Of a stretch of DNA of 64,000 nt, positions 1 through 64,000 are shown one piece after another. Source of the stretch: Haliotis cracherodii. Lineage: Eukaryota. Under the pieces are notes generated by a model. The model was not told the DNA's origin. It made no database searches and worked only from the letters and a program-made list of their open reading frames with translations. Numbering within the stretch: position 1 is the stretch's first letter; every line of letters begins with the position of its first letter. The position numbers and the translations under genes were made by a program. The stretch is taken from contig NW_027266292.1 in NCBI RefSeq assembly GCF_022045235.1, forward strand, positions 124,001 to 188,000. The letters run 5' to 3'.

Positions 1-1221
1 TAGGTTCCATTTTGCACAGTTCTGAATCTGAGAGATTAGATGAGTGAAACAGTCCGGTTCTGGGGGTGGACTGTTTGATAAAATCAGGAGAACCAGCATA
101 TCCACTGTCTGAGAAACTGTTGTCTTCCTTCACAGGGGAAGTGCACACTGTCCGGCTCATGTACGCATGCGCAGCCGGATGTGGAAACTGGGAACTGTGG
201 GAGGGTATTGTTCTCAGTCGCTCATGGCACTGACTTGTGTGTGACGTCACATTATCTGTTGGTGACGTCACGGGCACCTGCTGAATGTGCGTCATACGTC
301 GAGAGATGTGTTTTCTCAGCTGACGGTGTACATTGTCCGACACTCCTGGCAGAGAATGAACATAGGAGAGGATTTCTTCAGCACATTTGGAGAAGCCATG
401 TTGAAATCTGGCTTGAACTGCTTCTTTGACGTGTTTATGTGTGGTGTTGATCTTCCTGACGTTCCTCAGATAATCTACAGTCGTCTCCAAAATCTCGGCC
501 TTCTCCATCTTCTCATAGTTGGGGTCCTGGAAAAACGGATGACGAAATATTATAACGTTGTATGTTATGTATATAGAGAAAAGTATAGATACAAAACAAT
601 AAACGATTTTGAAAACAAAAACAGGTAAATGAGGAATTTTATTTCATTTACCGGTACATTACTTCTCTTCCATTAAAAAGATATAAAAAAATTAATAACC
701 ACTAAAATCAATACATGTCGTATCTAAGGTAATTAAACGACGAACGCTGCCTTTCACACAGTTTAAAAATAGAAAATTGTAATAAATTTAAAATAATATG
801 CTTACGTTTTTTTGCTCTGCCCCACAAACGATGCCCTTGATTTCTGACAGACATTGGTTGATTCTGGCCCGTCGCCGTTTTTCTGCCAACAGTTTTCGAC
901 CCTGAAGAAAAGAATATATCAGCATGAGTATTTTGTTACAGTATATAATTAAATATTATATATACAGGACAATATCGTGTTCCGCAGAATTATAACTAGT
1001 TATTACTGTAAAGGGGACAGATGTGACTTTGGCAAGATGCAAATAGCAGTAGTATTCATGATTAAGTCATTAGCTACGTGAATATGGGAGGGCGTCGATA
1101 TTTGTAAAAGCCCATATATTGACTTTCTGTTCACAGACAGAAACCAAATAAAAACAATGTGTACCTTTCTATATCCAATATATTCCGAGTCGGATTCCGT
1201 GTGTCTATCGAATGATTCCAT
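1..1221 (-). CDS. hes: HES-like bHLH-Orange repressor, copy 1 (3' end beyond the window)
   Basis: complement(join(<1..526,806..901,1165..1221)); GT-AG phase-0 introns. Exon 1 MESFDRHTESDSEYIGYRK, exon 2 GRKLLAEKRRRARINQCLSEIKGIVCGAEQKN, exon 3 DPNYEKMEKAEILETTVDYLR...Orange domain...DSGYAGS...DSELCKMEP, open to the window edge. Confidence 0.9.
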
Positions 1222-4660: not shown

Positions 4661-4822
4661 GTGAGTGGGTATGGTTTTACGCCGCTTTTAGCAATATTCC
4701 AGCAATATCACGGCGGGGGACACCAGAAATAGGCGCCACACATTGTACCCATGTCGGGAATCGAACCCGAGTCTTCGGCGTGACGAGCGAACGCTTTAAC
4801 CACTAGGCTACCCGACCGCCCT
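4661..4822 (-). mobile_element. tRNA-derived SINE, family A
   Basis: Full-length copy near-identical to 3967-4131. Confidence 0.85.
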
Positions 4823-12482: not shown

Positions 12483-13887
12483 TCACCACGGCCTCCATGG
12501 AACCTGTTGCTCCGTCTTGATTTGTTGAGAGTAGGACCACGTGCTCTGGAGCCACGCCCTCACTCTCGAGTCATCAAAGTTTTTGTGGATTCTGCTCGAC
12601 TCCATTTTACAAAGTTCTGAATCTGAGAGATTGGATGAGTGATAGTGTCCGGTTCTGGGGGTGGATTGTTTGATAATGTCAGGAGAACCAGCATATCCAC
12701 TGTCTGAAAAACTGTTGTCCTCCGTCACGGGGGAAGTGCACACTGTACTGCTCATGTACGCATGCTCAGCCGGATGTGGATATTGGGAATTGCGGGAAGG
12801 CACTGCGCTCAGTCTCTCATAGCATTGACTTGTGTATGACGTCACATCATCTGTTGATGACGTCACGGGTACCTGTTCAATGTGCGTCATACGTCGGGAT
12901 ATGTGTTTTCTAAGCTGATGGTGTACATTGTCCGACACTCCTGGCAAAGACTGAATGTAGGATAGGACTTCTTCAGCACATTTGGAGAAGCCATGCTGGA
13001 ATCTAGCTTGAACTGCTTCTTTGACGTGTTGATGTGTGGTGTTGATCTTCCTGACGTTCCTCAGATAATCTACAGTCGTCTCCAGAATCTCGGCCTTCTC
13101 CATCTTGTCATAATTTGGGTCCTGTAAAATCGGAAGAAGAAGAATATAAATACATGTTATATATTGTGTAGAGGAGAGATAGCACTTGCGTATCGGTGGA
13201 TATTATTGTGTTTGTTTTGTTTGTTGCTAACTCAGCAATATTCCAGCTTTTTGATGGCGAGTCTGGACCAGACAGTCCAGTGATTGACATCATGAGAATC
13301 GATCCTCGCAACTGGGATCCCGTTAGTCGCCTCTGACGACAAGCATAGTCACTTTTACTTTTACGAAAGCATGGGTTGCTGAATACCTATTCTACCCCGG
13401 ATCTTCACGGGTGTATATGATTGTGAAAAAGTCTGTCCCAGATCACTGAAATGTGACAATACTTACATTTTGTTGTTGCTCTCGACACACGATGTCTTTG
13501 ATTTCTGACAGACTCTGGTTGATTCTGGCTCGTCGCCGTTTTTCAGCCATTAATTTTCGCCCCTGTAAGATAAAGAGATTAATTAATAACAAAATATTTG
13601 TATATGAAATACGGCTGGAAGATGTGCCCTAATTCCATGAAGATAAAAATGTTTCTCAGTAAAGAAGATCGGATTTTTCCCATTTCACCCGAATAGTGCA
13701 TTAGCCACGTGTTTCAAGTAGAATCATACAACAGTTTCAAGGCAAATAATATGACAATGACGACACATTTATTCCCATCAAATTAGTCACGTCCATTTGA
13801 GAATTATTATTTGAGTAATCTAATGCATACCTTTCTTCGGCCCATATATTCACTGTCAGATTCCATGTTATGAAAGTAAGATTCCAT
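12483..13887 (-). CDS. hes: HES-like bHLH-Orange-WRPW repressor, copy 2 (263 aa)
   Basis: complement(join(12483..13121,13467..13562,13831..13887)); exon 2 GRKLMAEKRRRARINQSLSEIKDIVCREQQQN (96 bp); Orange domain ARFQHGFSKCAEEVLSYI; ends WRPW-TGA. Confidence 0.95.
13208..13412 (-). mobile_element. Family B short retroelement in intron 2 of HES copy 2
   Basis: Deleted copy lying within intron 13122-13466. Confidence 0.8.
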
Positions 13888-14220
13888 CACTGCGATGTGT
13901 TCAGCTCTGAGGGACAAGTTAGTGTGATGGAACGCCGCCTCCCGACCCGCCTTTATACCCCCAACATTCCCCTACCCACGCTAATCTATGCACATTTATG
14001 TGTTGACATCTGAATAGCCCGGCGCGATCCGATACATCCAGCCAATCAGCGCACGCTTAGCTAAGTGGTGGCACGCGCCAGCTCGCGTTAAACATCACCC
14101 CGAGACAGATGTTCTTCTCACGACCCGACAGGGATGATATTCTTCAGGTGCAAGGAGCATCTTGCTTGGCGTGACACGAGGAGTTACGAGGACGAGCACC
14201 CGGCCTGTCAACAATCCGCC
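13888..14220 (-). promoter_or_regulatory. 5' UTR and proximal promoter of HES copy 2
   Basis: TATA 13952-13957, CCAAT, class-C site 14070-14079, Su(H) site 14115-14122, N-box. Confidence 0.85.
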
Positions 14221-20178: not shown

Positions 20179-21550
20179 TCACCACGGCCTCCATGGAACC
20201 TGTTGCTCCGTCTTGATTTGTTGAGAGTAGGACCACGTGCTCTGCAGCCACGCCCTCACTCTCGAGTCATCAAAGTTTTTGTGGATTCTGCTCGACTCCA
20301 TTTTACAAAGTTCTGAATCTGAGAGATTGGATGAGTGATAGTGTCCGGTTCTGGGGGTGGATTGTTTGATAATGTCAGGAGAACCAGCATATCCACTGTC
20401 TGAGAAACTGTTGTCCTCCTTCACAGGGGAAGTGCACACTGTCCTGTTCATGTACGCATGTGCAGCCGGATGCGAATTTTCGGAATTGTGGGACGGCACT
20501 GCGCTCAGTCTCTCATAGCACTGACTTGTGTATGACGTCACATCATCTGTTGATGGCGTCACGGGCACCTGTTGAATGTGCGTCATACGTCGAGAGATGT
20601 GTTTTCTCAGCTGACGGTGTACATTGTCCGACACTCCTGGCAGAGACTGAATGTAGGAGAGGATTTCTTCAGCACATTTGGAGAAGCCATGATGGAATCT
20701 GGCTTGAACTGCTTCTTTGACGTGTTGTTGATGTGTGGTGTTGATCTTCCTGACATTCCTCAGATAATCTACAGTCGTCTCCAGAATCTCGGCCTTCTCC
20801 ATCTTGTCATAGTTTGGGTCCTGGAACATTGACAATAAATTATGTAATTGAATTATAGTAATATAAAAGACGCGTAAATTTGTTTCAAAATATAGATAGT
20901 TTGAAAATCAAGCCAACGAGGATAAACATACCAATGTCAGAAATAAGTGTTTATATTTCATTATATTTTATATATCAATTAGTGATGACACCAGGTGTTC
21001 GCTAGAAGGTGAGCATATTTTGTGGTTCAGCTATTATCACCAAAACTATCATACGTTTTTTATCCATTGGGTCTATAGAAAAAAAACCATTCGTGAATTC
21101 CATATAATATCCACAAGTAAACTGACATTAAACTGAGATGTAAATACTTAGTTAAATATAAGTAAGAATACTTACATTTTGTTGTTGAACTCCACACACG
21201 ATGCCCTTGATTTCTGACAGACTCTGGTTGATTCTGGCTCGTCGCCGTTTTTCAGCCATTAACTTTCGACCCTGAAAGAAAACCCAGATCAGAATGAAAC
21301 AACGATGTGAATGTAAATGCAATGAAGATCACGACACGGTATTCTATCAAATATAACGACTGGGACACAGTCTATTCCCATTTCTCATGAATATGAAATT
21401 AGCCACGTGCTCGTGGTGTAAACAAGCACATATTATTTACAGGTTGTAAAAAGTGAATTTGAAACTTAATGATATGAGCAAGCTTATGTCTACCTTTCTT
21501 CGGCCCATATATTCACTGCCAGGTTCCGTGTTTTGAAAGTAAGATTCCAT
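20179..21550 (-). CDS. hes: HES-like bHLH-Orange-WRPW repressor, copy 3 (264 aa)
   Basis: complement(join(20179..20820,21176..21271,21494..21550)); GT-AG sites; exon 2 GRKLMAEKRRRARINQSLSEIKGIVCGVQQQN; ends WRPW. Confidence 0.95.
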
Positions 21551-26864: not shown

Positions 26865-27851
26865 TACGTCCCACTGTCCCAGTTCGAGGCGTGCAGGAGC
26901 TGGGTGGAGGTCGTTCATAATGAATCGGATAACACACGGATTTTATATACTTTCAATTGTGTATTCATTGTTTGTGTCTATTCAGGAGGAGTTTGGACGG
27001 AGTTGTGCTTTAATGGAGATACCTTTATGGATATGCGGTAGACGCCAGGCATTTTTAAAGTTTCAAAGTATCAAGCTTGCACCTGGTAAACACATGGTCT
27101 GTTCACCAGGTTTTACCATCTGATTTAATGAAACCAGTTAAATTTAATTCTAAAAAATCAACTTCTTTGATATGCAATTTCACCTGTGTTTGTTTTGCAG
27201 GACTTTGTCATTTCTGCAGGGACTTTGTCAGTGGAACACATCTGCGACATTTTTGCCTACTCTTTACCAATACGCTGCACAGCAACTGTGAAGTATTGTA
27301 CAAAACGGTTAACCCAATTCTGGGGCATTAACAGGAAAAGTTTACGCTCACTGTAGCAATGTATGACCATTAGGGGTGATTAACTTTGTGCTGACACGGC
27401 ACCACGGCAGGACTATTGCAACACAAACAAAGGTTTACCACCATGGCAGTTGTGTTTCAGCCAGCCATATGGTTAGTCGAATGCTAGGACGGTTATTAAG
27501 CAAGTGAGTTTTTATTTTAGTTCAACATGATTCTGTTTGTACACATGTCTTAGTGCCAGAATGTTTTGTCCTTCAGAAACAAGCTGACGACAGTATAAAG
27601 GATCATAATATTTTACAACTTTGAAGCTAGCAGAACAGATTCTTGATAACCTATTCTAATCAAGGTGTACTGGTGTATTCTACGGATATAAACTCGTAAA
27701 AAAATTACAGCAACGAAGTATAGTAGTGTTATATATTTCTTTTATCAACGAATATAATATATCACAGACAATGAATATGAAATGTCCTGTATGAAAAAGC
27801 ACTTTTATGTCGTATACAAAATCACAGCTATATAAAGTTGTCTGGAGCATT

Positions 27852-29154
27852 TTACCAGGGCCTCCACGGAACCTGTTGCTCCGTCTGAATCTGTTGTGAG
27901 TAGGACCACGTGCTCTGGAGCCACGCTCTCACTCTCGAGTCTTTGTCAACCATTTCTGATGGTATTTTACATCTTAGTTCTGAATACGAGAGGCTGGGGA
28001 GATAGTGTCCGGTTCTGGGGGTGGATTGTTTGACACTATCAGGAGAACCAGCATATCCACTGTCTGAGAAACTATTTTCCTCCTTCACAGGGGAAGTGCA
28101 CACTGTCCTGTTCATGTACGCATGCGCAGCCGGATGTTGATATTGGACATTGTGGGAGGGTAATGTTCTCAGTCGCTCGAAGCACTGACTTGTGTATGAC
28201 GTCACATCATCTGTTGATGATGTCATGGGCACCTGCTGAATGTGCGTCATGCGCCCACAGATGTGTTTTCTCAGCTGACGGTGTACATTGTCCGACACTC
28301 CTGGCAGAGACTGAATGTAGGAGAGGATTTCTTCAGCACATTTGGAGAAGCCATGATGGAATCTAGCTTCAACTGCTTCTTTGACGTGTTGATGTGTGGT
28401 GTTGATCTTCCTGACGTTCCTCAGATAATCTACAGTCGTCTCCAGAATCTCGGCCTTTTCCATCTTGTCATAGTTTGGGTCCTGGAAAAATGAATGACAA
28501 TAAATAACATGCATCGTGATATGTAAGAAATTATTTTTAAAAACAAGAAAGATATTATTTCAGTCTTTAATTTGAAATAGGAGTAAATTTGCAAGAATGT
28601 GAATATAGATTGTAAACATCGAAGGGAGCTACTTACATTTCGTTTATGTGCCGCACACACGATGCTTTTGATTGTCGACAGGCTTTGGTTGATTCTGGCT
28701 CGTCGCCGTTTTTCAGCCATTATCTTTCGACCCTGGAGAAAAAAACAGATTCATATGAAATGTATTCATGTTTGCATACAATATTTCAGGTTATCAAAAT
28801 ATATGTTCTGAAAGAACGCTTCGCTTGACTCTAGTCTCTGAAATGAACATATCCTACAGAAAACAGTTGTTAAATTATCTTAATAAAAATATAATAAATA
28901 GACCAGAGACTCTCTTCATCCTGGTACTGCAGTAATCTAGACTTGCCAATTATTATTGAGAAAGGGACAAACAGTCTATTCCCATTTCTTATGAATATTA
29001 AATTAGCCACGTGTTTCAGTCATGAACAAGCACATGTAATTTACACATTATAAACAGACCATTTGAAACTTTTTTATAAGAGTAAATTGATGCTTACCTT
29101 TCTTAGGCCCATATATTCACTGTCAGATTCCATGTTATCAAAGTAAGATTCCAT
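27852..29154 (-). CDS. hes: HES-like bHLH-Orange-WRPW repressor, copy 4 (260 aa)
   Basis: complement(join(27852..28481,28637..28732,29098..29154)); exon 2 GRKIMAEKRRRARINQSLSTIKSIVCAAHKRN; ends WRPW-TAA. Confidence 0.95.
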
Positions 29155-29530
29155 CACTGAGATGTGTTCAGCTCTTAAGGGACAAGTTGGTGTGATGGAA
29201 AGCAGCCTCCCGACCCGCCTTTATACCCCTAACATTCCCCTACCCACGCTAATCTATGCACAGTTATGTTTTGACATCTGAATAGCCCGGCGCGATCCGA
29301 TACACGCAGCCAATCAGCGCACACCTAGTTAAGTGGTGGCACGCGCCGGCTCGCGTTAAACTTCACCCTGAGACAGATGTTCTTCTCAGAGCCGACAGGG
29401 ATGATATTCTTCAGGAGCAGAGAGCATCTTGCTCAGCGTGACACGAGGAGTTACGTGGCTGAGCACCCGGCCTGTCAACAATCTGAGTAATTTTGATCCA
29501 GTGTTTCATTCAATTAAAGTGTATTCCCAC
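29155..29530 (-). promoter_or_regulatory. 5' UTR and proximal promoter of HES copy 4
   Basis: TATA 29220-29225, CCAAT, class-C site 29338-29347; proximal Su(H) site mutated (TTCTCAGA 29383-29390); distal GTGGGAA core at 29524-29530. Confidence 0.85.
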
Positions 29531-31454
29531 CCCTTCTTGGGCCGTGACACGCGCTGTGTCGCATTCCGTCGCCAACCGCAACCTTGAACAGTAACCAAGT
29601 GAAACACGAAGTTGATTGGATTTCTCTTGGATTTACAACACACAATACCCGTATTGACGGTGCTGACATGCAACCACAATATTAACAGATTGAAATTATT
29701 TCAGTGTTACTGGTCAGTACTGTTATCAGTATATAACTAGCCATGAATTGTATTTCTTTCCAAAGTCCCTTTTAGTGCCAACTTCACTCTTTTTAGTTCA
29801 CAGAAGAAATAATCCTGAAAAATATTTTATATAACGTCTTTGCCGTGCATTTTGTGAACAAGTTGTGTCATTATCAGTTGGTCGTTTACTTTCTACGTTT
29901 TGGCATTGTTTTCAGCTTACAAGCTGCAGATTATCACTAAGCCAGCTAATCCTTGTAATCCACTGTAGCTGTCGCCGCGAAGATGACGTTGTCAGACACA
30001 TCTTACTTATTATGTTCAAATCTAAGTTTATTATCTGACTGGAATATGGTATCTAGCTGAAATATGCGTGCTTTCGGTAAAAAAAAAGCAATTGTGTACA
30101 TTGGTGTAAAATACAACGCTGCTAAATTATTTTTTCATTAATGGGGAAAGATATAATAAGTAGTATTCATGGAGAAAATTCACCGCCACACAGTGTTTTT
30201 GTTGGACGAGGGCGGAAATGCATCTCGCCCTGAAGATGAGGGACGTGCGAGCCAGTCGCTGTTTTTTATCATTTGGAAATCTAATGCCTTTCATGATATG
30301 TTTATTATTTATTGTTATTTTTCCATGATGCTCTCTCAATTACAAACATAATAATTGAATGTAGTAACAGTCAATATTATCATTTTAGAGAATTAAAGTC
30401 ACTGTCACACAGTGGTGAGCCAAGGCTGTTACTCACCTCTATGTCAATTAACGTGAGTCTGTCTGTAACTTACAAGAAACATACCTTGTGCACAGAACCC
30501 TTCTTAATATTTCACGAATCGCGTTGTGTCATTCTCCACTCAGACCTGGGGCCAGACATGGTTTGGATAGCGATTATGTGTCAAATGGTAATTCTTATTA
30601 TCACAATCTGATAATTAACCATCTACTCAGAATGAAAGTCGTTAGTGTCAGAACAGGTAGATAATGTGTTTCTTTATTAGTCTGTACACGTCTCCTTATG
30701 GACGCATCACCAAAAAAAAAAGAGTAGAAAAATAGCATTCGGCTCATAGTTTCAAAAACAATTTCAATCTTGTTTTGCAGCCGTTCATGGACAAGTGCCA
30801 AGTCTCCATACAAAATCCTAGGCCCCCAATCAGAATATCAAATCACCGGAAATTTAGGATCGATAAACAAGACTTATTTGAACCCCTTTGAATATCTTTT
30901 GATATTAATGTTTCTGCAGTGTCCAAACAGCCCTTGATTAATCTACTTTACACGTCGCCACGAACACGTTGTCAGACACACAGGGTCACGTGATATTTAA
31001 TGTTGTCAGCTCAGCCGCCTGAGAAAGTGAATCAGAACACTTCAGGAAGGGACCACCCAGCCGTCACTGAGGGCAATGACATTAAACCTTGATATGACAT
31101 TAAACGAAACCTTGGGAGTTTAGAACCCAAAGTGTCGAACTATTGAAACTGCTTCCATCTTGTGTTTATAGCGATATTCCTTCCTATTAATAAGTGTATC
31201 CATGCATAGAAATTTAAGCCATGCCCATGTTTGGGCATATATCAATAATCATGCGCAAATAGATTTGCAAAAAAATCCACTTTAGTCTGTAAAACGAACG
31301 AATATTGTTTGTTATTTACACTCATATCCATATTTGACTTTGATATGATATTTACGAAATTGTTTAACTCTCTATCATATTTGATCAGTTCTTTCGTTTC
31401 GTAAAAATGGTATCTTACCGGAATGAGTGAAGTCTCTACTTTAGTTTTAACACT

Positions 31455-31615
31455 GTCCATAAACACTAGGATATATCACAGATTATCATGATGTCATGCT
31501 GAGATCTGTGACGTAACGTCATTGTTCACGGCCAACCATCCAGTGATGGAGATTGTTTGTAACGGTCTTTCTGGTGATGAACTCCCTCTGGGCTGGACAA
31601 AACAGCTGATAGGGA
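31455..31615. promoter_or_regulatory. Conserved non-coding element B, spacer 4-5
   Basis: Homologous to 5637-5850; first CRE changed to TGATGTCA. Confidence 0.5.
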
Positions 31616-34181
31616 ATAATAGGATGACAAGGTATCAAGAATTCCACATGCTGTGTTTATTCCTAGGTCAGCATGTTTGGACACATTTACAAGGTGTGGA
31701 CACTCCCACACGTGGACGAAACAGTTGCTGAGACTGAGAAAAGTGACATATGACCAGATCTGTGATTTGTGGATTTTACACAATGAAAGAAAACAACGAA
31801 AATGTGGATTTAAAGATTTGTTTTCTTTTTGAGCGAAGTGAACAGAACTTCTTATGTTTACTCAAATATTGCAAGTCACAGATACAAGTTTCGTGGACGA
31901 AACAGTTCAGATCAGATCTATTGTTGGATTTCACACAATGAAACATAAACCCAAATATGTATAACATTATGATCATAATAATGACACTTTAAAAAGGAAG
32001 TTCAACCACAAAAACAATTTGGATTTTTTTCTCCATTACTAAGTCGTCTTGGAGTGAGAGCATTCCAGTGAAATAGTTAAAAAGTTAGTCTTATGATAAA
32101 CTCTCCCAGAAATTTTAACTATAGTTCAAATATTCAAACAACGTGTCTTGAGTGTATGTCATATCGGGGATAAATGTTCCAAAGGGCAGTCACTGATGCT
32201 AGAACTATATTTAGATGCTTTTTGGCCTTTTTGTAGCGTAGTTCGTGCCACTAGTCACTGCAAAACATTTACAGAAACAGCTTTTGTGACTCTTAGAGAA
32301 AGAAACCATAAAATTGAATTGACTACGTTTTAATAAATAAACAATAACCTTGAACTATCTCTCTGATCTCGTCCCACCTGAAGTATTAGAAACTTAAGAC
32401 TATAACCTTAGAAATTGTTCTAAACTACAGCCACTAAATAACAGAAGGGCAAACTTGTGATATCTGTGCTTTCGGGACGACTGGACAGTTTAAAATGGAG
32501 CAGTTTTGAAACAAGAAATAGTGCGCATACGTTCGAGCGAACCATATACAACACGACTCCAATAAATTCATCCTTATTACATTATATTATTCCCAAAGGT
32601 TCAACATGATCAATATGATTCAATTAGGTTCAATTTGATCAAGGGTAGTCTTGTGTAGCGTTCACTCGTCACGCCGAGACCCGGTTCGATTCCACACATG
32701 GGTACAATGTGTGAAGCCCATTTCTGGTGTCCCCCCATTCAATGTGATTAAAATGATTCAATGAGGTTAAATATGATCAGTATTATTCATAAAAGTGCAA
32801 TATGATCTGTGGTGAGCCTGGCCATGCTCGTGTGCTAAAAAAGGTGGAAAAACGTCTCCCAATCTCCCCACCATTTTGCTTTCTCCCAACATTAAGCTGA
32901 CACGCCGTAACATAGCTGAAATACTGTTCAAAGCCGAAAACCAAACTCACTCACTCACACACTGCCACCTGTCGAATGCAATGTTTGACAAGATGGCCAG
33001 TCACTTTGATGAATTATTTCGTGACATTGACACCGGGGTGAAAACAATCGGGATTTGTTTTTGTCACGTGGAATAACTGATTGTCCAGTCAACACTTCGG
33101 ACATTGCAAGAACCATCTGCTGGACACTACGACCTCGTGCATCAGAATGCCACCACGTGCAGTTCCCCGCTGCTTGTAGAGAAGGTGGCGCACCCTATCG
33201 GAATAATTAACGGTTTCCTTATGACCGGCAACTGACACTAACGACCTGGCCTTTCAGCAACTAGTTGTTGGGCTACTGATTGTAATTATCAGACAATGCG
33301 GGTGATTATTTGACACCAAACTGTTATCATAATAATGTCTGGGTGAGAAAGTAGAAATAAGAATTGACAAGATGCTAAGACAGCCGAAATGATAGTTGAG
33401 AAAGAGTAACTTATTATGCCATGAAGTTTCAGCAATGACGCTTTGTTTAACATCCCATTAATAATTGTCCTCATATAATTAGGCCAGAACAAAAAGGTGA
33501 GGCGATACGTAATCATAAAACTGTAATCACTATGCATTAATTTAACATCCCATTTATAATTATCGTCATATAAGAGGCTGGAACCAAAAGGTGAGACTGC
33601 TAAAAGAGATCGCGTTCAAGATTATTGCACTTGTATAGCGAAGTCCATTTAAGTGTTTTCTGCTTGTACTGGTCCGGATAGACCCCAAAAAAGCTAATCC
33701 AAATGGAGCTCAGAGCAATGCTAAAATTCAGAGCTGAGGCAATCTAGACATGACAAGTCATTCTAGACTTGAGTTGGATTCCTTTTTAAGTATTTACGTG
33801 TGTGCACTAAATTGTAATCATTATCAGTAAGTCTATTAGACTTAAATTTAGTCATTTAAATATATACATATATCCACACACAAAATCTAGACTTGCCAAA
33901 TGATTCTACTCCTTTCTGAGTTTCCCTTTTCAATACATTCTCCAGGGTCGGAGAGATAGACAGGGGTTCTATATGCGATAGACCTGCCGTCATAATATTG
34001 AACTCATTCACACCCAGGAAATCGGTTGTTTTTTTAAAAACGCTTTGAATGCAGAAAGTGCGGTTAAACAAATGTGAAATGCCCAAGGACGTGCATTCAG
34101 TATTGACACCTAAATTAATAACCCAGTGATAATTTCGGCCTTTGAGTCACATTCCGCCACTCTACTTCTCAATGTTCGCTG

Positions 34182-34252
34182 TGTGACACTTCGCGTTGTC
34201 ACGCTCTGGTAAGATCACGTGACATACGGGCACCTGCGGCGATCAGTGTCAC
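34182..34252. promoter_or_regulatory. Conserved non-coding element A, spacer 4-5
   Basis: Same E-box-rich block. Confidence 0.65.
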
Positions 34253-35427
34253 AACTAACGCCTGTCCCAGTTCGAGGCGTGCAGGAGCTTGATGGAGGTC
34301 GTTAATAATGACCCTACAAGGATTTTATATACTTTCATTTGTGTTTTCACTGTTTGTGTCTATTCAAAGCGACGGACGGACGGAGTTGTGCTTTTATGGA
34401 AATACTTTAATGGACATCATGTCGACGCCAGGCCAGTTTCAAAGTGTCCCAGTGTTTAAGCTGGCATTTGGTAAACCAGTCTGTACGCCAGGTCTTATCA
34501 TCTGATTTAACGAAACCAGTTGAATTTAATTTAGATTTCACACATGTATTCTTTCTAGGAACTTTGGTCCTTTTTACTGTCCAACTGTCTACTTCATTCC
34601 TGACTGTTCTTCGACAATGCACTACGACACATTCTGATTTATGTTCAAAAAAGTAAACCCAATTCATCAGGGGACAGTTACCGTTTCAACGTAGACGAGC
34701 TTTTAATAGGAACAGTAGTCCTGCACCATGAACGTGATCTATAATTATTTTATGAAAAAAATAATCTAGAAATGCATTCAAAAGCAAGACCAGCAAGCTC
34801 AAGCTAGCTCACTCTGAAATCAGCATAGGGAATTTTTTATATATTTTTAGAGTAAAAAAAGCACATTGTGTAATATAAGATTTCAAAGATCTATAGGAAC
34901 AATTGCCACTGTAGACTGTATACCACCATTCAGTCAGCCATTGAGTGGAATGCTGGTTGTTAGAGAGATAAGCAAGTGCGTTTGGATTTTTGTCCGACAT
35001 TAAATATGTAATTGTGTGTATCTGTGTATCCACATGTCTGCACACGTGTTTGTGGCTGAAGAAATCTGTTGTTGGATAAAGTGTTTCAGATGCTCATTGT
35101 CAGAATTGTTTTTCCTTGTGATAGCTGACGACATTACAGAGGGTAATAATATTTTACTACTTTACCTAATAACTGGTAATATTTATACAGCTAGCAGACC
35201 TGATTTCTTGGAAAACTATTCAACCCAAGGTGCACTAGTACATACACCAGTATATCATGCTTAGAATAGGCACATCGTGAATTCGTAAAAAAACAACGAA
35301 GGATACAAGAGTTAAATAATACATCTTTATCAACAAATATGATTTATCACAGACAATGTATACGAACAGACCGATATAAAGAAGCACCATTATGACGTGT
35401 CCAAAATATAAAGTTGCATGGAGCATT

Positions 35428-36738
35428 TTACCAGGGCCTCCATGGAACCTGTTGCTCCGTCTTAATCTGCTGTGAGTAGGACCACGTGCTCTGGAGCCAC
35501 GATCTCACTCTCGAGTCTTTGTCAACAATTTCTGACGGTACGTTACAACTAAGTTCTGAATCTGAGAGACTGGGGTGATAGTGTCCGGTTCTGGGGGTGG
35601 ATTGTTTGACACTATCAGGAGAACCAGCATATCCACTGTCTGAGAAACTGTTGTCCTCCTTCACAGGGGAAGTGCAAACTGTCCGGCTCATGTACGCATG
35701 TGCAGCCGGATGTGGATATTTGGAATTATGAGAAGGTATTGTTCTCAGTCGCTCGGAGCACTGACTTGTGTATGACGTCACATCATCTGTTGATGACGTC
35801 TCGGGCACCTGTTGAATGTGCGTCAAACGTCGAGATATGTGTTTTCTCAGCTGATGGTGCACATTGTCCGACACTCCTGGCAGAGACTGAATGTAGGAGA
35901 GGATTTCTTCAGCACATTTGGAGAAGCCATGATGGAATCTGGCTTGAACTGCTTCTTTGACGTGTTGATGTGTTGTGTTGATCTTCCTGACGTTCCTCAG
36001 ATAATCTACAGTCGTCTCCAGAATCTCGGCCTTTTCCATCTTGTCATAGTTTGGGTCCTGGAAAAAATGAATAACAATAAATAACCAAGGCATACATCGT
36101 GATATATAAGAAATTATTTTTTTAAAAAAGAAAGATATTATTTCAGTCTTAAATTTGAAATAGGAGTAAATTTGCAAGAATGTGAATATAGATTGTAAAC
36201 ATCAAAGGGAGCTACTTACATTTCGTTTATGTGCCGCACACACGATGCTTTTGATTGTCGACAGGCTTTGGTTGATTCTGGCTCGTCGCCGTTTTTCAGC
36301 CATTATCTTTCGACCCTGGAGAAAAAAACAGATTCATATGAAATGTATTCATGTTTGCATACAATATTTCAGGTTATCAAAATATATGTCCTGAAAGAAC
36401 GCTTCGCTTGACTCTAGTCTTTGAAATGAACATATCCTACAGAAAACAGTTGTTAAATTATCTTAATAAAAATATAATAAAAAGACCAGAGACTCTCTTC
36501 ATCCTGGTACTGCAGTAATCTAGACTTGCCAATTATTATTGAGAAAGGGACAAACAGTCTATTCCCATTCCTTATGAATATTAAATTAGCCACATGTTTC
36601 AGTCATGAACAAGCACATGTAATTTACACATTATAAACAGACCATTTGAAACTTTTTTTATAAGAGTAAATTGATGCTTACCTTTCTTCGGCCCATATAT
36701 TCACTGTCAGATTCCATGTTATGAAAGTAAGATTCCAT
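35428..36738 (-). CDS. hes: HES-like bHLH-Orange-WRPW repressor, copy 5 (260 aa)
   Basis: complement(join(35428..36057,36220..36315,36682..36738)); GT-AG sites; ends WRPW-TAA. Confidence 0.95.
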
Positions 36739-37114
36739 CACTGCGATGTGTTCAGCTCTGAGGGAGGAGGTAGTGTGATGGAACGCAGCCTCCCGACCCG
36801 CCTTTATACCCCTAACATTCCCCTACCCACGCTAATCTATGCACAGTTATGTTTTGACATCTGAATAGCCCGGCGCGATCCGATACACGCAGCCAATCAG
36901 CGCACACCTAGCTAAGTGGTGGCACGCGCCGGCTCGCGTTAAACTTCACCCGGAGACAGATGTTCTTCTCACGACCCGACAGGGATGATATTCTTCAGGA
37001 GCAGAGAGCATCTTGCTTGGCGTGACACGAGGAGTTACGTGGCCGAGCACCCGGCCTGTCAACAATCTGAGTAATTTTGATCCACTGTTTCATTCAATTA
37101 AAGTGTATTCCCAC
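36739..37114 (-). promoter_or_regulatory. 5' UTR and proximal promoter of HES copy 5
   Basis: TATA 36803-36808, CCAAT, class-C site 36921-36930, Su(H) site 36966-36973, N-box, distal GTGGGAA core at 37108-37114. Confidence 0.85.
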
Positions 37115-38691
37115 CCCTTCTTGACCCGTGACACGCGCTGTGTCGCATTCCGTCGCCAACCGCAACCTTGAACAGTAACCAGGTGAAACACGAAGTTGAT
37201 TGGATTTCTCTTGGATTTACAACACACAATACCCGTATTGACGGTGCTGACATGCAACCACAATATTAACAGATTGAAATTATTTCGGTGTTACTGATCA
37301 GTACTGTTATCAGTATATAACTAGCCATAAATTGTATTTCTTTCCAAAGTCCCTTTTAGTGCCAGCTTCACTCTTTTTAGTTCACAGAAGAAATAATCCT
37401 GAAAAATATTTTATATAACGTCTTTGACGTGAATTGTGTGAACAAGTTGTGTCATTATCAGTTGGTCGTTTACTTTCTCCGTTTTGGCATTGTTTTCAGC
37501 TAACAAGTTGCAGATTATCATTAAGCCAGCTAATCCTTGGAATCCACCGTAGCTGTCGCCGCGAAGATGACGTTGTCAGACACATCTTACTTATTATTTG
37601 GAAATCTAAGTTTATTATCTGACTGGAATATGGTATCTAGCTGAAATATGACGTGCTTTCGGGAAAAAAGGACTTGTGTACATTGCTGCAAAATACAACG
37701 CTGCTAAATTATTTTTTCATTAATGGGGAAAGATATAATTAGTAGTATTCATGGAGAAAATTCACCGCCACACAGTGTTTTTGTTGGACATGGGCGGAAA
37801 TGCATCTCACCCTGAAGATGAGGGACGTGCGAGCCAGTCGCTGTATTTTTATAATTTGGAAATCTAATGCCCTTCGTGATATGTTTATTATTATTTATTA
37901 TTATTTTTCCATGATGCTCTCTCAATTACAAACATTATAATTGAATGAAATAACTGTCAATATTATCAATTTTAGAGAATTAAAGTCACTGTCACACAGT
38001 GGTGAGCCAAGGCTGTTACTCACATCCATGTCAATTAACGTGAGTCTGTCTGTCTCTTACAAGAAACATACCTTGTGCACAGAACCCTTCTTAATTTTTC
38101 ACGAATCGCGTTGTGTCATTCTCCACTCAGACCTGGGGCCAGACATGGTTTGGATAGCGATTATGTGTCAAATGGTAATTCTTATTATCACAATCTGATA
38201 ATTAACCATCTACTCAGAATGAAAGTCGTTAGTGTCAGAACAGGTAGATAATGTGTTTCTTTATTAGTCTGTACACGTCTCTTTATGGACGCATCACCAA
38301 AACAAAGTGTAGAAGCATAGCAATAGGCTCATAGTTTCAAAAACAATTTCAATCTTGTTTTGCAGCCGTTCAGGAAGTGACCACCCAGCCGTCACTGAGG
38401 GCAATGACATTAAACCTTGATATGACATTAAACGAAACCTTGGGACCTTAGAACCCAAAGTGTCAAACTATAGAAACTGCTTCCATCTTGTGTTTATAGC
38501 GATATTCCTTCATATTAATATCCACTTTAGTCTGTAAAACGAACGAATATTGTTTGTTATTTACACTCATATCCATATTTGACTTTGATGTGATATTTAC
38601 GAAAGTCTCTATCATATTTGATCAGTTCTTTCGTTTCGTAAAAATGGTATCTTACCGGAATGAGTGAAGTCTCTACTTTAGTTTTAACACT

Positions 38692-38850
38692 GTCCATAAA
38701 CACTAGGATATATCACAGATTATCATGACGTCATGCTGAGGTCTGTGACGTAACGTCATTGTTCACGGCGAACCATCCAGTGATGGAGATTGTTTATAAT
38801 GGTCTTTCTGGTGGTGAACCCCCTCTGGGCTGGACAAAACAGCTGATAGG
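38692..38850. promoter_or_regulatory. Conserved non-coding element B, spacer 5-6
   Basis: Homologous to 5637-5850. Confidence 0.5.
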
Positions 38851-40931
38851 GAATAATAGGATGACAAGGTATCAAGAATTCCACATGCTGTGTTTATTCC
38901 TAGGTCAGTATGTTTGGACACATTTACAAGGTGTGGACACTCCCACACGTGGATGAAACCGTTGCTAAGACTGAGAAAAGTGACCTATGACCAGATCTGT
39001 GATTTGTGGATTTTACACAATGAAACAAACCCACGAAAATGTGGATTTAATTTTGTTTTTCTTTTTGAGCGAAGTGAACAGACCTTCTTATGTTTACTCA
39101 AATATTGCAAGTCACAGATACAAGTTTCGTGGACGAAACAGTTCAGATCAGATCTATTGTTGGATTTCACACAATGAAACATAAACCCAAATATGTATAA
39201 CATTATGATCATAATAATGACACTTTTAAAAGGAAGTTCAACCACAAAAACAATTTGGATTTTTTTCTCCATTACTAAGTCGTCTTGGAGTGAGAGCATT
39301 CCAGTGAAATAGTTAAAAAGTTAGTCTTCTGATAAACTCTCCCAGAAATTTTAACTATAGTTCAAATATAAAACAACATGTCTTGAGTGTATGTCATATC
39401 GGGGATAAATGTTCCAAAGGGCAGTCACTGATGCTAGAACTATATTTAGATGCTTTTTGGCCTTTTTGTAGCGTAGTTCGTGCCACTAGTCACTGCAAAA
39501 CATTTACAGAAACAGCTTTTGTGACTCTTAGAGAAAGAAACCATAAAATTGAATTGACTACGTTTTAATAAATAAACAATAACTTTGAACTATCTCTCTG
39601 ATCTCGTCCCACCTGAAGTATTAGAAACTTAAGACTATAACCTTAGAAATTGTTCTAAACTACAGCCACTAAATAACAGAAGGGCAAACTTGTGATATCT
39701 GTGCTTTCGGGACGACTGGACAGTTTAAAATGGAGCAGTTTTGAAACAAGAAATAGTGCGCATACGTTCGAGCGAACCATATACAACACGACTCCAATAA
39801 ATTCATCCTTATTACATTATATTATTCCCAAAGGTTCAACATGATCAATATGATTCAATTAGGTTCAATTTGATCAAGGGTAGTCTTGTGTAGCGTTCAC
39901 TCGTCACGCCGAGACCCGGTTCGATTCCACACATGGGTACAATGTGTGAAGCCCATTTCTGGTGTCCCCCCATTCAATGTGATTAAAATGATTCAATGAG
40001 GTTAAATATGATCAGTATTATTCATAAAAGTGCAATATGATCTGTGGTGAGCCTGGCCATGCTCGTGTGCTAAAAAAGGTGGAAAAACGTCTCCCAATCT
40101 CCCCACCATTTTGCTTTCTCCCAACATTAAGCTGACACGCCGTAACATAGCTGAAATACTGTTCAAAGCCGAAAACCAAACTCACTCACTCACACATTGC
40201 CACCTGTCGAATGCAATGTTTCACAAGATGGCCAGTCACTTTGATGAATTATTTCGTGACATTGACACCGGGGTGAAAACAATCGGGATTTGTTTTTGTC
40301 ACGTGGAATAACTGATTGTCCAGTCAACACTCCGGACATTGCAAGAACCATCTGCTGGACACTACGACCTCGTGCATCAGAATGCCACCACGTGCAGTTC
40401 CCCGCTGCTTGTAGAGAAGGTGGCGCACCCTATCGGAATAATTAACGGTTTCCTTATGACCGGCAACTGACACTAACGACCTGGCCTTTCAGCAACTAGT
40501 TGTTGGGCTACTGATTGTAATTATCAGACAATGCGGGTGATTATTTGACACCAAACTGTTATCATAATAATGTCTGGGTGAGAAAGTAGAAATAAGAATT
40601 GACAAGATGCTAAGACAGCCGAAATGATAGTTGAGAAAGAGTAACTTATTATGCCATGAAGTTTCAGCAATGACGCTTTGTTTAACATCCCATTAATAAT
40701 TGTCCTCATATAATTAGGCCAGAACAAAAAGGTGAGGCGATACGTAATCATAAAACTGTAATCACTATGCATTAATTTAACATCCCATTTATAATTATCG
40801 TCATATATGAGGCTGGAACCAAAAGGTGAGACTGCTAAAAGAGATCGCGTTCAAGATTATTGCACTTGTATAGCGAAGTCCATTTAAGTGTTTTCTGCTT
40901 GTACGGGTCCGGATAGACCCAGAAAAAAATA

Positions 40932-41876
40932 ATCCAAATGGAGCTCAGAGCAACGCTAAAATTCAGAGCTGAGGCAATCTAGACTTGACAAGTCATTCTA
41001 GACTTGAGGTGGATTCCTTTGTAAAGTATTTACGAGTGTGCACTAAATTGTAATCATAATCAGGAAGTCTATTAGACTTAAATTTAGTCATTTAAATATA
41101 TACATATATCCACACACAAAATCTAGACTTGCCAAATGATTCTACTCTATTCTGAGTTTCCCTATTCAATATACTCTCCAGGGTCTGAGAGATAGACCAG
41201 GGTTCTATATGCCATAGACCTGCCGTCATAATATGTGCTCTCCTCACGTATTTTATGCCTAAAGTATTTATTTATTCACGTATACAAGAACCATAAGAAC
41301 AAAATTAACTATTCTCTTCACCTTCTACTTTAGGTAAGCTAAAACCAATCAACAATACAGAAACTATGCTAATTTATTATTAAATTTCGTTGCTTTGAAT
41401 AAGAAAAAAAAAATGAAATATGGAATGGTCCACATTCTAGGATTGCTTTTGAGTTGAATATCCATCAGTTCTATTTTATTTAACATATTTTACAAACAAT
41501 AATGCAACTTTGACATCATATATTGTAACTAAAACCCAATCCATTTTGTTATCCTTTATGTATTAAGTGTTATATGCTAAAATACCCGTGAAGGTCCGGG
41601 TTAGAATAGGTTGGGTTGCTGAAGACCCATTCCATCCCGGAATCTTCACGGGTCCGTCAAATAGGAAAGATGGGTGTGAAAATCATATATAATGTGCATA
41701 CTTTTTTTTTTTTGTCTGTATGGTCTAATCACTTAATTTGTCTATCTAAAAATGGGACAACCTATATTGTTGAGTAAGAGAATGAATGATGTTTGTCGCC
41801 GCAGTCAGCGCCATTCCAGCTATATATCGACGCAATGTAAATTTGTCGAGTCTTGGACATTTACAATATTTAAAAC
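40932..41876 (-). repeat. Inverted copy of 16438-17383
   Basis: About 940 bp reverse-complement match, including the fused family B heads. Confidence 0.9.
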
Positions 41877-42305
41877 TTGAGTTGGATTCCTTTTTAAGTA
41901 TTTACGTGTGTGCACTAAATTGTAATCATTATCAGTAAGTCTATTAGACTTAAGTTTAGTCATTTAAATATATACATATATCCACACACAAAATCTAGAC
42001 TTGCCAAATGATTTTACTCCTTTCTGAGTTTCCCTTTTCAATACATTCTCCAGGGTCGGAGAGATAGACAGGGGTTCTATATGCGATAGACGTGCCGTCA
42101 TAATATTGAACTCATTCACACCCAGGAAATCGGTTGTTTTTTTAAAAACGCTTTGAATGCAGAAAGTGCGGTTAAACAAATGGCGACACGTTCCTGTGAA
42201 ATGCCCAAGGAACGTGCATTCAGTATTGACACCTAAATTAATAACCCAGTGATAATTTCGGCCTTTGAGTCACATTCCGCCACTCCACTTCTCAATGTTC
42301 AGCTG

Positions 42306-42376
42306 TGTGACACCTCGCGTTGTCACGCTCTGGTAAGATCACGTGACATACGGGCACCTGCGGCGATCAGTGTCAC
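42306..42376. promoter_or_regulatory. Conserved non-coding element A, spacer 5-6
   Basis: Same E-box-rich block. Confidence 0.65.
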
Positions 42377-42945
42377 AACTAACGCCTGTCCCAGTTCGAG
42401 GCGTGCAGGAGCTGGATGGAGGTCGTTAATAATGACCCTACATGGATTTTATATACTTTCATTTGTGTTTTCACTGTTTGTGTCTATTCAAAGCGACGGA
42501 CGGAGTTGTGCTTTTATGGAAATACTTTAATGGATATCATGTCGACGCCAGGCCAGTTTCAAAGTGTCCCAGTGTTTAAGCTGGCATTTGGTAAACCAGT
42601 CTGTACGCCAGGTCTTATCATCTGATTTAACGAAACCAGTTGAATTTAATTTAAATTTCACACATGTATTCTTTCTAGGAACTTTGGTCCTTTTTCTGTC
42701 ATATCTACTTTATTCCTGACTGTTCTTCGACAATACGCTACCACACACATCTGATTTATGTTCAAAACAGTAAACCCAATTCACAAGGGGACACAGTTGC
42801 CTTTTCAACGTGGATGAGCTTTTAACAGGAACAGTTGCCACTGTAGAAATGTTTACCCCCATTCAGTCAGCCATTGAGTGGAATGCTGGGAATGTTGTTA
42901 GAGAGATAAGCAAGTGCGTTTTGAATTGTTCGAAATGAAATAAAT

Positions 42946-43213
42946 AGACACAATTTTATGGATAACAACTTCTTTAATACTGTGAAAAGCGACGTTTCCT
43001 TATACCGTTGTCACACAGTTTCGGAATAGATCCTTATACCGTTGTCACGTAGTTTCGGAATAGATCCTTATACCGTTGTCACGCAGTTTCGGAATAGATC
43101 CTTATACCGTTGTCACGCAGTTTCGGAATAGATCCTTATACCGTTGTCACGCAGTTGACCGAAACGTCGCTTTTCACAGTATTAAAGAAGTTGTTATCCA
43201 TAAAATTGTGTCT
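42946..43213. repeat. Perfect 53-bp inverted repeat enclosing about 4.7 copies of a 34-bp tandem unit
   Basis: Arms 42946-42998 and 43161-43213; unit CCTTATACCGTTGTCACRCAGTTTCGGAATAGAT across 42998-43156. Confidence 0.9.
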
Positions 43214-43682: not shown

Positions 43683-44962
43683 TTACCAAGGCCTCCATGG
43701 AACCTGTTGCTCCGTCTTAATCTGCTGTGAGTAGGACCACGTGCTCTGGAGCCACGATCTCACTCTCAAGTCTTTGTCAACCATATCTGACGGTACTTTA
43801 CAACTAAGTTCTGAATCTGAGAGACTGGGGTGATAGTGTCCGGTTCTGGGGGTGGACTGTTTGACACTATCAGGAGAACCAGCATATCCACTGTCTGAGA
43901 AACTCTTGTCCTCCTTCACAGGGGAAATGCACACTGTCCGGCTCATGTACGCATGTGCAGCCGGATGTTGATATTTGGAATTGTGGGAAGATATTGTTCT
44001 CAGTCGCTCGGAGCACTGACTTGTGTATGACGACACATCATCTGTTGATGGCGTCTCGGGCACCTGCTGAATGTGCGTCATACGTCGAGAGATGTGTTTT
44101 CTCAGCTGATGGTGTACATTGTCCGACACTCCTGGTAGAGACTGAATGTAGGAGAGGATTTCTTCAGCACATTTGGAGAAGCCATGGTGGAATCTGGCTT
44201 GAACTGCTTCTTTGACGTGTTGATGTGTAGTGTTGATCTTCCTGACATTCCTCAGATAATCTACAGTCGTCTCCAGAATCTCGGCCTTCTCCATCTTGTC
44301 ATAGTTTGGGTCCTGGAAAAATGAATAACAATAAATAATCAAGGCATACACCGTAATATATAAGAAACTTTTTTAAAAAAAGAAGAAGATATTAAATTTG
44401 ATATAGGAGTAAACTTGGCTGAGAAATTGTATATTTTAAAACACGTAACTTGTGTTGCAAATGCAAAAGAAATAGATATAATTTATTTTTTTAATAGGAA
44501 AAATCTTGGGTATCTAGGGTAAATAGATGGTGAACATGGATTGTAATCAAAGGGAGCTACTTACATTTCGTTGATGTGCCGCACACACGATGCTTTTGAT
44601 TGTTGACAGGCTTTGGTTGATTCTGGCTCGTCGTCGTTTTTCTGCCATCATCTTTCGGCCCTGGAGAAAAAAAATAGATTGATGTGAAATTCCTTCATAT
44701 TTGCATACGATATTTCAGAATATCAAAATATAAGTTTTGAAAGAACCCTTAAATAGCGTGTTGAGAAAAGGGACAAACACAGTCTATTCCCATTTCTCAT
44801 GCATATTAAATTAGCCACGTGTTTTAAATGTAAACAAGCACATGTTAATTATAAGTTGTAAACAGTCCATTTGAAAGTTATTTTTAAGAGTAAACTAATG
44901 CCTACCTTTCTTCGGCCCATATATTCACTGTCAGATTCCATGTTATCAAAGTAAGATTCCAT
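43683..44962 (-). CDS. hes: HES-like bHLH-Orange-WRPW repressor, copy 6 (260 aa)
   Basis: complement(join(43683..44312,44565..44660,44906..44962)); exon 2 GRKMMAEKRRRARINQSLSTIKSIVCAAHQRN; ends WRPW-TAA. Confidence 0.95.
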
Positions 44963-63538: not shown

Positions 63539-64000
63539 TCACCACGGCCTCCATGGAACCTGTTGCTCCGTCTTGATTTGTTGAGAGTAGGACCACGTGC
63601 TCTGCAGCCACGCCCTCACTCTCGAGTCATCAAAGTTTTTGTGGATTCTGCTCGACTCCATTTTACAAAGTTCTGAATCTGAGAGATTGGATGAGTGATA
63701 GTGTCCGGTTCTGGGGATGGATTGTTTGATAATGTCAGGAGAACCAGCATATCCACTGTCTGAAAAACTGTTGTCCTCCTTCACAGGGGAAGTGCTCATG
63801 TACGCATGCGCAGCCGGATGCGGATATTGGGAATTGCGGGAAGGCACTGCGCTCAGTCTCTCATAGCATTGACTTGTGTATGACGTCACATCATCTGTTG
63901 ATGACGTCACGGGCACCTGTTGAATGTGCGTCATACGTCGAGAGATGTGTTTTCTCAGCTGACGGTGTACATTGTCCGACACCCCTGGTAGAGACTGAAT
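63539..64000 (-). CDS. hes: HES-like repressor, copy 8 (3' part of the last exon only)
   Basis: Open frame from the window edge to WRPW-TGA; near-identical to exon 3 of copies 2, 3 and 7, with a 12-bp in-frame deletion (YMSTSPVK). Confidence 0.9.
   Translation of the reverse strand: MQSLPGVSDNVHRQLRKHISRRMTHIQQVPVTSSTDDVTSYTSQCYERLSAVPSRNSQYPHPAAHAYMSTSPVKEDNSFSDSGYAGSPDIIKQSIPRTGHYHSSNLSDSELCKMESSRIHKNFDDSRVRAWLQSTWSYSQQIKTEQQVPWRPW

What the first reader, a model, noticed from the sequence alone, without database searches (positions are those of the whole stretch)
13467..13562. The signature basic-region proline of HES proteins is replaced in every copy
Seen: the basic regions read RKGRK-L/I/M-(M/L)-AEKRRRARIN, with L in copies 1, 2, 3 and 7, I in 4 and 5, and M in 6. 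Known: Hairy/E(spl)/HES1 have Pro at this position (RKSSKPIMEKRRRARIN) and Hey proteins have Gly; the residue is associated with N-box/class-C preference. Inference: this is a distinct WRPW-bearing subfamily whose basic helix is uninterrupted, possibly with shifted DNA specificity, and the position still varies among paralogues.
Basis: partly seen in the sequence, partly recalled or inferred. Interest (0 to 1): 0.7.

Follow-up and report, generated by a model that had tools for sequence, protein, structure and literature searches.

The report
Proline-less HES repressor lineage of snails
These eight tandem abalone genes belong to a snail-wide branch of the Hairy/HES gene repressors that carries leucine (or isoleucine/methionine) where the family's textbook proline sits in the DNA-binding helix, a change that likely straightens the helix and fine-tunes, rather than rewrites, which DNA sites they bind.

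Summary
Observation confirmed: the 7 window copies carry L,L,L,I,I,M,L at bHLH basic position 6, aligned to HES1's Pro; an 8th copy straddling the window end has L. All 8 are intact bHLH-Orange-WRPW genes (basic-region dN/dS about 0.1), spliced in relatives. It is not an abalone oddity: the same Leu6 plus an unusual Ala8 marks one clade (98-100 SH-aLRT; still 98 with the basic region removed) found in limpets, abalones, a vent snail and heterobranchs (16 of 16 non-abalone members Leu). Outside the clade 181 of 195 readable proteins have Pro and none has Ala8. Members are already catalogued as ordinary Hes genes (LgHES1/9/10/11, PvHES3, BgHES3, AcaHes1); I found no paper remarking on the lost proline. 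Pro loss recurs sporadically elsewhere (Gly, Thr, His, Val, Gln, Leu). K5/E9/R12/R13 are invariant, published FoldX values rate L/M/I at position 6 as harmless in a normal bHLH helix, and AlphaFold extends the helix. So most likely a Groucho-recruiting CAC-site repressor with at most a HEY-like shift; binding is untested. The variation among paralogues is minor (one subclade, single-base steps). Verdict: new variant of a known kind, interest 0.42.

The parts
13831..13887 (-). copy 2 exon 1 (57 bp, ATG to basic residues R1-K2), phase-0 donor
   Evidence: intron 1 skipped in a contig of run X4
13467..13562 (-). copy 2 exon 2 (96 bp): basic positions 3-13 and helix 1
   Evidence: aligns ungapped to HES1 2mh3
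13551..13553 (-). basic position 6, TTA = Leu, where HES proteins have Pro
13545..13547 (-). basic position 8, GCT = Ala, second clade-specific residue
   Evidence: Ala8 in 36 of 36 clade proteins, 0 of 195 others
12483..13121 (-). copy 2 exon 3: loop, helix 2, Orange domain, Ser/Thr-rich tail, WRPW and stop
   Evidence: intron 2 skipped in contigs of X4 and X13
13952..13957 (-). TATA box, 70 bp above the ATG, in all 8 copies
14042..14046 (+). CCAAT box, in all 8 copies
14070..14079 (+). GGCACGCGCC, the extended class C (Hes1-type) repressor site, identical in all 8 promoters
14115..14122 (-). single Su(H)/CSL-type site CGTGAGAA (in copies 1, 2, 3, 5, 8; altered in 4, absent in 6, 7)
1..1221 (-). 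copy 1 (exon 1 1165-1221, exon 2 806-901, exon 3 runs off the window start and ends in WRPW in L003); Leu6 at 890-892
20179..21550 (-). copy 3 (exon 2 21176-21271); Leu6
27852..29154 (-). copy 4 (exon 2 28637-28732); Ile6
35428..36738 (-). copy 5 (exon 2 36220-36315); Ile6
43683..44962 (-). copy 6 (exon 2 44565-44660); Met6
53091..54581 (-). copy 7 (exon 2 54158-54250, 93 bp); Leu6
63539..64000 (-). 3' part of copy 8 (basic region lies beyond the window, G000:C29:188347-188439); Leu6, no intron 1

Best explanation
The window holds a tandem array of eight intact genes of a gastropod-wide, HES-derived clade whose basic region has Leu (in one subclade Ile or Met) instead of Pro at position 6 and Ala at position 8; the proteins likely dimerise, likely bind CAC-half-site elements (CACGTG and CACGCG) through the retained K5/E9/R12/R13 with a predicted continuous basic helix, and likely repress by recruiting Groucho through WRPW. 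Shown: gene structures, residue states, clade, purifying selection, splicing in relatives. Inferred: that losing Pro lets the basic region adopt the ordinary bHLH helix, so the likely effect is a HEY-like tuning (better fit to the symmetric CACGTG site, less tolerance of N-box half-sites) rather than a new motif; that the invariant class C site in each promoter is a HES-type repression or auto-repression input; that the single CSL site gives partial Notch input.
For: Domain set bHLH + Orange + terminal WRPW in all copies. Intron in phase 0 before basic position 3 as in the genome's Pro-bearing Hes genes, unlike the genome's Hey gene whose exon starts at position 7. Clade support 100 SH-aLRT, 98 with the basic region deleted. 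Leu6 in 16 of 16 non-abalone members across limpets, a neomphaline and heterobranchs. dN/dS 0.10 in the basic region, 0.03 in helix 2, 0.29 overall. K5, E9, R12, R13 in 36 of 36 clade proteins; Arg13 proteins prefer CAC (PMC3113581 section 14). In that paper's FoldX table, position 6 costs 0.07 (Met), 0.16 (Leu), 0.53 (Ile) kcal/mol against 6.36 for Pro in canonical bHLH-DNA scaffolds. AlphaFold helix 16-48 in P0002 versus 26-55 (from Lys5) in Pro-bearing P0036. Hey, also Pro-less, prefers the class B site and binds the N box very weakly (PMC1950541). GGCACGCGCC, the Hes1 ChIP motif (10.1101/336305), is in all 8 promoters, expected in 0.1% of shuffles of one promoter, and GGCACGCG also lies near CSL sites at 4 Pro-bearing Hes loci of the same genome.
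Against: No binding data exist for any clade member that I could find. Position 6 is a base-contacting, mutation-intolerant position, and Leu occurs there in only 0.59% of 510 bHLH domains, so a larger change in specificity is possible. The FoldX numbers come from non-HES scaffolds. The AlphaFold models are monomers without DNA with low global confidence (pTM 0.24 and 0.26; N-terminal helix turn pLDDT about 54). The promoter class C site could be read by the genome's Pro-bearing Hes proteins instead, and its sharing among 8 copies is one inherited event. With the long-branch gene L013 included, the clade's own branch fell to 70/0 (joint group 91/86).
Confidence: 0.6

Rival explanations
1. The substitution is functionally silent: the clade binds the same class B/C/N-box sites as HES1 with similar preferences, and Leu6 is only a lineage marker.
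For: Pro loss recurs in unrelated WRPW-bearing proteins (His, Thr x2, Leu x2, Gly x3 among 195 readable non-clade proteins; Val, Gln, His in a published alignment). Reviews report that Pro-bearing E(spl) and Gly-bearing Hey prefer the same class B site. Ile/Met exchanges in copies 4-6. Recalled, not seen here: 1990s Drosophila mutagenesis found little effect of replacing the proline.
Against: Leu6 is fixed in 16 of 16 non-abalone members over the whole gastropod tree and Ala8 in 36 of 36, which argues for constraint; Hey binds the N box only very weakly.
Confidence: 0.2
2. Leu6 plus Ala8 (and Gly3) give a truly different sequence preference, such as new flanking bases or a non-CAC half-site, so this clade regulates its own target set in snails.
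For: Positions 6 and 8 are both base-contacting in bHLH-DNA structures; both changed on the same branch and stayed fixed; Leu6 is very rare among bHLH proteins (0.59%).
Against: E9 and R13, the main half-site determinants, are unchanged; FoldX predicts little cost for Leu6 (0.16) or Ala8 (0.58) in normal geometry.
Confidence: 0.13
3. The clade has lost useful DNA binding and works as a HES6-like partner that titrates or tethers to other bHLH proteins and brings Groucho.
For: HES6 precedent (PMC2150829); a hydrophobic residue replaces a position that normally contacts DNA; the helix 1-loop segment is the most variable part of the bHLH among copies (dN/dS 0.29).
Against: The basic region is under stronger constraint than the protein average, all basic residues are kept, and the loop is as long as HES1's in the ungapped alignment, unlike HES6.
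Confidence: 0.07

Closest known systems
Hairy/E(spl)/HES family (e.g. human HES1, PDB 2mh3; the genome's nine Pro-bearing Hes genes)
   Same: bHLH + Orange + C-terminal WRPW; K5-E9-R12-R13; phase-0 intron before basic position 3 with a 96-bp exon; class C and CSL sites in the promoter; tandem clustering.
   Different: Leu/Ile/Met instead of Pro6, Ala instead of Met/Leu/Val/Ile at 8, Gly/Asp at 3, Cys at the end of helix 1; long branch in trees.
Catalogued gastropod Hes genes LgHES1/9/10/11, PvHES3, BgHES3 (PMC5381572 supplement) and AcaHes1, BglHes3 (PMC8166818 supplement)
   Same: Same Leu6/Ala8 basic region; these are the orthologues; Lottia also has four near-identical copies.
   Different: Listed only as numbered Hes genes; the word 'proline' does not occur in the main text of PMC5381572; the abalone eight-copy array and its Ile/Met subclade are additional.
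HEY family
   Same: Group E bHLH-Orange repressors without Pro6; class B site preferred, weak N-box binding - a model for how this clade may bind.
   Different: HEY has Gly6 and YRPW that does not bind TLE; different intron position in the basic region. The window proteins end in WRPW.
HELT and DEC/clockwork orange
   Same: Group E members without Pro6 (Lys6, Arg6).
   Different: No terminal WRPW; basic residue at 6 rather than a hydrophobic one; used as outgroup and fall outside the clade.

Membership tests
HES (Hairy/E(spl)), strict definition | bHLH domain | tested here: met
   PF00010 above cut-off in 5 of 5 proteins scanned
HES (Hairy/E(spl)), strict definition | Orange domain | tested here: met
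   PF07527 above cut-off at all 8 array copies; 4 of 5 proteins (Aplysia member 19 bits, under cut-off)
HES (Hairy/E(spl)), strict definition | C-terminal WRPW | tested here: met
   8 of 8 copies
HES (Hairy/E(spl)), strict definition | Proline at basic position 6 | tested here: not met
   L/I/M in 8 of 8 copies; so filed as a HES-derived variant, not as a canonical proline-bHLH
HES (Hairy/E(spl)), strict definition | HES-type exon layout (phase-0 introns, exon starting at basic position 3) | tested here: met
   7 of 8 copies; copy 8 has lost intron 1
HES (Hairy/E(spl)), strict definition | Nested among HES in a tree | tested here: inconclusive
   Falls among Pro-bearing HES away from the HELT outgroup, but deep forks are open and no HEY row was in the trees
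HES (Hairy/E(spl)), strict definition | Binding to class C / N-box / class B sites | not testable with these tools
   inferred from K5, E9, R13 only
HES (Hairy/E(spl)), strict definition | Groucho/TLE recruitment | not tested
   inferred from WRPW
HES (Hairy/E(spl)), strict definition | Notch target (CSL sites) | tested here: inconclusive
   one CSL-type site in 5 of 8 proximal promoters, no paired site seen
HEY | Gly at basic position 6 | tested here: not met
HEY | YRPW-type tail | tested here: not met
   WRPW in 8 of 8
HELT / DEC / Cwo | Lys6 or Arg6, no terminal WRPW | tested here: not met

The most novel reading that the evidence does not exclude
Gastropods evolved a fifth kind of group E repressor: a HES-derived, WRPW/Groucho-type protein whose Leu6/Ala8 basic helix reads a different site set from HES and HEY, kept as a single gene in most heterobranch snails and expanded into tandem arrays independently in limpets and abalones, possibly with sister Pro-less clades (His6/Ala8, Gln6/Ala8) from the same origin; it would be a natural test of what the HES proline does.
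Probability: 0.2. Interest if true: 0.7.

Novelty: new variant of a known kind. Interest (0 to 1): 0.42.

Why it matters
Reviews and a mollusc paper define HES proteins by an 'invariant' or 'HES-specific' basic-region proline, and one predicts that it destabilises DNA binding and links it to non-canonical sites. A clade that dropped it and then held Leu6/Ala8 across the gastropod tree shows the proline is not needed for a selected WRPW-type HES protein, and gives a ready pair (Leu-clade versus Pro-bearing paralogues from the same genome) to measure what the proline does. It also tells annotators that the abalone 'E(spl) m7/m8/mgamma-like' genes are one snail-specific clade. The impact is limited because the same question is open to simple mutagenesis of HES1 and no phenotype is attached yet.

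Tried and rejected
Sequencing or alignment artefact: rejected. HEY origin: rejected on tail and intron position; not tested by tree because no HEY protein was among the fetched rows. Abalone-specific novelty: rejected. Fold search of the monomer model against PDB gave no match at E <= 0.001; uninformative. A degenerate codon pattern search in G000 gave 110 matches against 97 for the control, too loose to use. The careful tree with the mixture model did not finish; one search is the quick tree. Primary papers on mutating the proline (Tietze 1992, Dawson 1995, Jennings 1999, Wainwright 1992) were not held; what I say of them is recall. Paper searches for a description of a proline-less Hes clade found none: (0 papers). 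Motif searches in the supplements of PMC4172395 and PMC8166818 found no sequences; the FASTA supplements of PMC8166818 and one image PDF could not be read and may show more members. No RNA holder on record as RNA was listed; the laid runs are guessed RNA contigs. Earlier scan findings: none. No caenogastropod, bivalve, cephalopod or chiton member appeared; these searches are word-limited or top-150 only, so this is not evidence of absence (16 of 16 bivalve Hes rows have Pro). No complex prediction was run.

Full report
1. Observation. The minus strand at 13467-13562 is a 96-bp exon bounded by AG and GT; exon 1 (13831-13887) supplies R1-K2 and exon 3 (12483-13121) the loop, helix 2, Orange domain and WRPW. 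The residue aligns without gaps to the Pro of human HES1 in PDB 2mh3. A search of the own genome found an eighth copy straddling the window end; it has Leu6 and has lost intron 1. The 10-20 kb on either side that I fetched (L001-L004) showed no further basic-region match.

2. The genes are intact and selected. All 8 reading frames are open and end in WRPW; four are identical to annotated database proteins labelled as abalone (Haliotis) 'enhancer of split-like' or 'HES-like' or unnamed. Pooled pairwise dN/dS among the 8 copies is 0.10 in the basic region, 0.29 in helix 1-loop, 0.03 in helix 2, 0.20 in Orange and 0.29 overall (Nei-Gojobori, pairs not independent). Contigs of guessed-RNA runs of related organisms skip intron 1 (X4) and intron 2 (X4, X13), 2 of 4 runs laid.

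3. How special is the change. In the same genome 9 of 10 other HES-type basic exons examined have Pro6 and one (L013) has His6 with Ala8. Of the best 150 cluster representatives, 137 were readable: Pro 128, Leu 6, Met 1 (a truncated clade member whose first residue may be a called start), His 1, Thr 1. Over all 262 proteins fetched, 31 were unreadable, 36 belong to the clade (Leu 33, Ile 2, Met 1) and 195 do not (Pro 181; His 1, Thr 3, Leu 2, Gly 3, Lys 3, Ser 1, Arg 1; 8 of these 14 end in WRPW); Ala8 occurs in 36 of 36 clade proteins and 0 of 195 others. These samples favour proteins close to the query, so divergent HES are under-counted. The two outside Leu6 cases are a lizard HES2-like and a fluke protein; the lizard protein sits among Pro-bearing HES2-like proteins and the fluke one elsewhere on a long branch, so they look independent of the clade.

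4. It is a gastropod-wide clade. The same basic region occurs in Gigantopelta, Patella (4 proteins), Aplysia, Lymnaea, Physella, Biomphalaria, Bulinus, Bradybaena (2), Candidula, Elysia (2) and Plakobranchus: Leu6 in 16 of 16. These and the window copies form one branch: 100 SH-aLRT in a 95-row tree; with the basic region cut out, 98 in a 59-row quick mixture-model tree, and 70/0 alone or 91/86 together with the long-branch L013 gene in a 61-row careful tree. Rows left out for thinning or long branches are listed in those scripts; no HEY row was available. Ile and Met are confined to the copy 4-5-6 subclade (97) and its counterpart P0008 in another abalone, and are one base away from each other and from Leu. 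That limpets, abalones and heterobranchs parted in the Palaeozoic is recalled, not computed.

5. Prior record. The supplement alignment of PMC5381572 (parts 24-25 read; main text searched) has 68 HES-labelled rows, 62 with the residue: Pro 48, Leu 6 (LgHES1, 9, 10, 11, PvHES3, BgHES3, all this clade by motif), Val 3 (leech), Gln 2, His 1, Arg 2 (human DEC). PMC8166818 lists the Aplysia and Biomphalaria members as AcaHes1 and BglHes3 (passages and supplement). Neither comments on the proline in what I could search. PMC4172395 (passages) treats Gly6 as the Hey signature and Hes as prone to lineage-specific tandem duplication. PMC1950541 (passages), PMC8431614 (passages), PMC8657788 (passages) and PMC8429573 (passages) state the proline as the family mark.

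6. Mechanism. PMC3113581 (sections 13-15 and supplement read) finds that E9 reads CA, R13 favours the CAC half-site, and positions 5, 6, 8 and 12 also touch bases; Pro6 is predicted to be incompatible with the canonical helix (6.36 kcal/mol) while Met, Leu and Ile cost 0.07, 0.16 and 0.53; Leu6 occurs in 0.59% of 510 bHLH domains. K5, E9, R12 and R13 are invariant in the clade. AlphaFold2 gives one helix from residue 16 (two before basic position 1) in P0002 and from Lys5 in the Pro-bearing control P0036; both are DNA-free monomers of low global confidence. Hey, the best-studied Pro-less relative, prefers CACGTG and binds the N box weakly. I therefore infer a normal continuous basic helix that binds CAC-type sites, with at most a HEY-like tuning, and Groucho recruitment through WRPW. 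All 8 promoters keep TATA, CCAAT and GGCACGCGCC, the Hes1 ChIP-seq motif (10.1101/336305, passages), seen in 0.1% of 3000 shuffles of one promoter; 5 of 8 keep one CSL site; four Pro-bearing Hes loci of the genome also have GGCACGCG beside CSL sites. This fits the usual Hes feedback wiring but does not show which protein binds there.

7. Verdict. Real, and a clean exception to a textbook family mark, held across snails; members are catalogued but, in my searches, not described as a proline-less clade. By the strict definition it fails the HES proline test and is best filed as a HES-derived variant that works like a HES/HEY repressor. Shifted specificity remains untested. Novelty: new variant of a known kind. 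Interest 0.42.

Noticed in passing
L001:1848-1994 (- strand), copy 8: Copy 8 has lost intron 1 precisely; exon 1 and exon 2 are one exon. Database proteins of other abalones with the same shortened N-terminus (P0003, P0007, P0178) suggest the loss may be shared.
   Followed up: partly
window 14070-14079 and the matching place of all 8 promoters: Invariant extended class C site GGCACGCGCC about 190 bp above the ATG, with CCAAT and TATA; single CSL site lost or altered in copies 4, 6, 7, which may uncouple some copies from Notch.
   Followed up: partly
L013:1845-1937 and 4711-4800 (G000:C15): A second Pro-less Hes-like gene with His6 and Ala8, resembling LgHES7/PvHES2; no Orange match or WRPW found in the stretch fetched; joins the clade only weakly on a long branch. 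LgHES4/PvHES4 (Gln6, Ala8) is a third such gastropod type in the published alignment.
   Followed up: partly
window 13230-13412 (intron 2 of copy 2): A very high-copy short repeat (depth 1e5 in laid contigs), probably a SINE or MITE.
   Followed up: no
exon 3 versus exon 2 of the array: Synonymous divergence is about 0.5 in exon 1-2 but 0.14-0.18 in helix 2/Orange, and the 3' 300 bp of copies 2, 3 and 7 are 96-98% identical: a hint of gene conversion homogenising exon 3 while the DNA-binding exon diverges.
   Followed up: no
window 27700-44960: Copies 4, 5 and 6 share long intergenic blocks at 93-99% identity with a spacing near 7.2-8.3 kb: the most recent duplications of the array.
   Followed up: no
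P0208, P0210, P0212; P0207; P0257; P0221; P0222; P0163: Other WRPW-ended HES-like proteins without Pro6: tardigrade-type Gly6 (a HEY-like residue on a WRPW protein), lizard Leu6 and Thr6, fluke Leu6, rotifer Thr6, an unnamed His6.
   Followed up: partly
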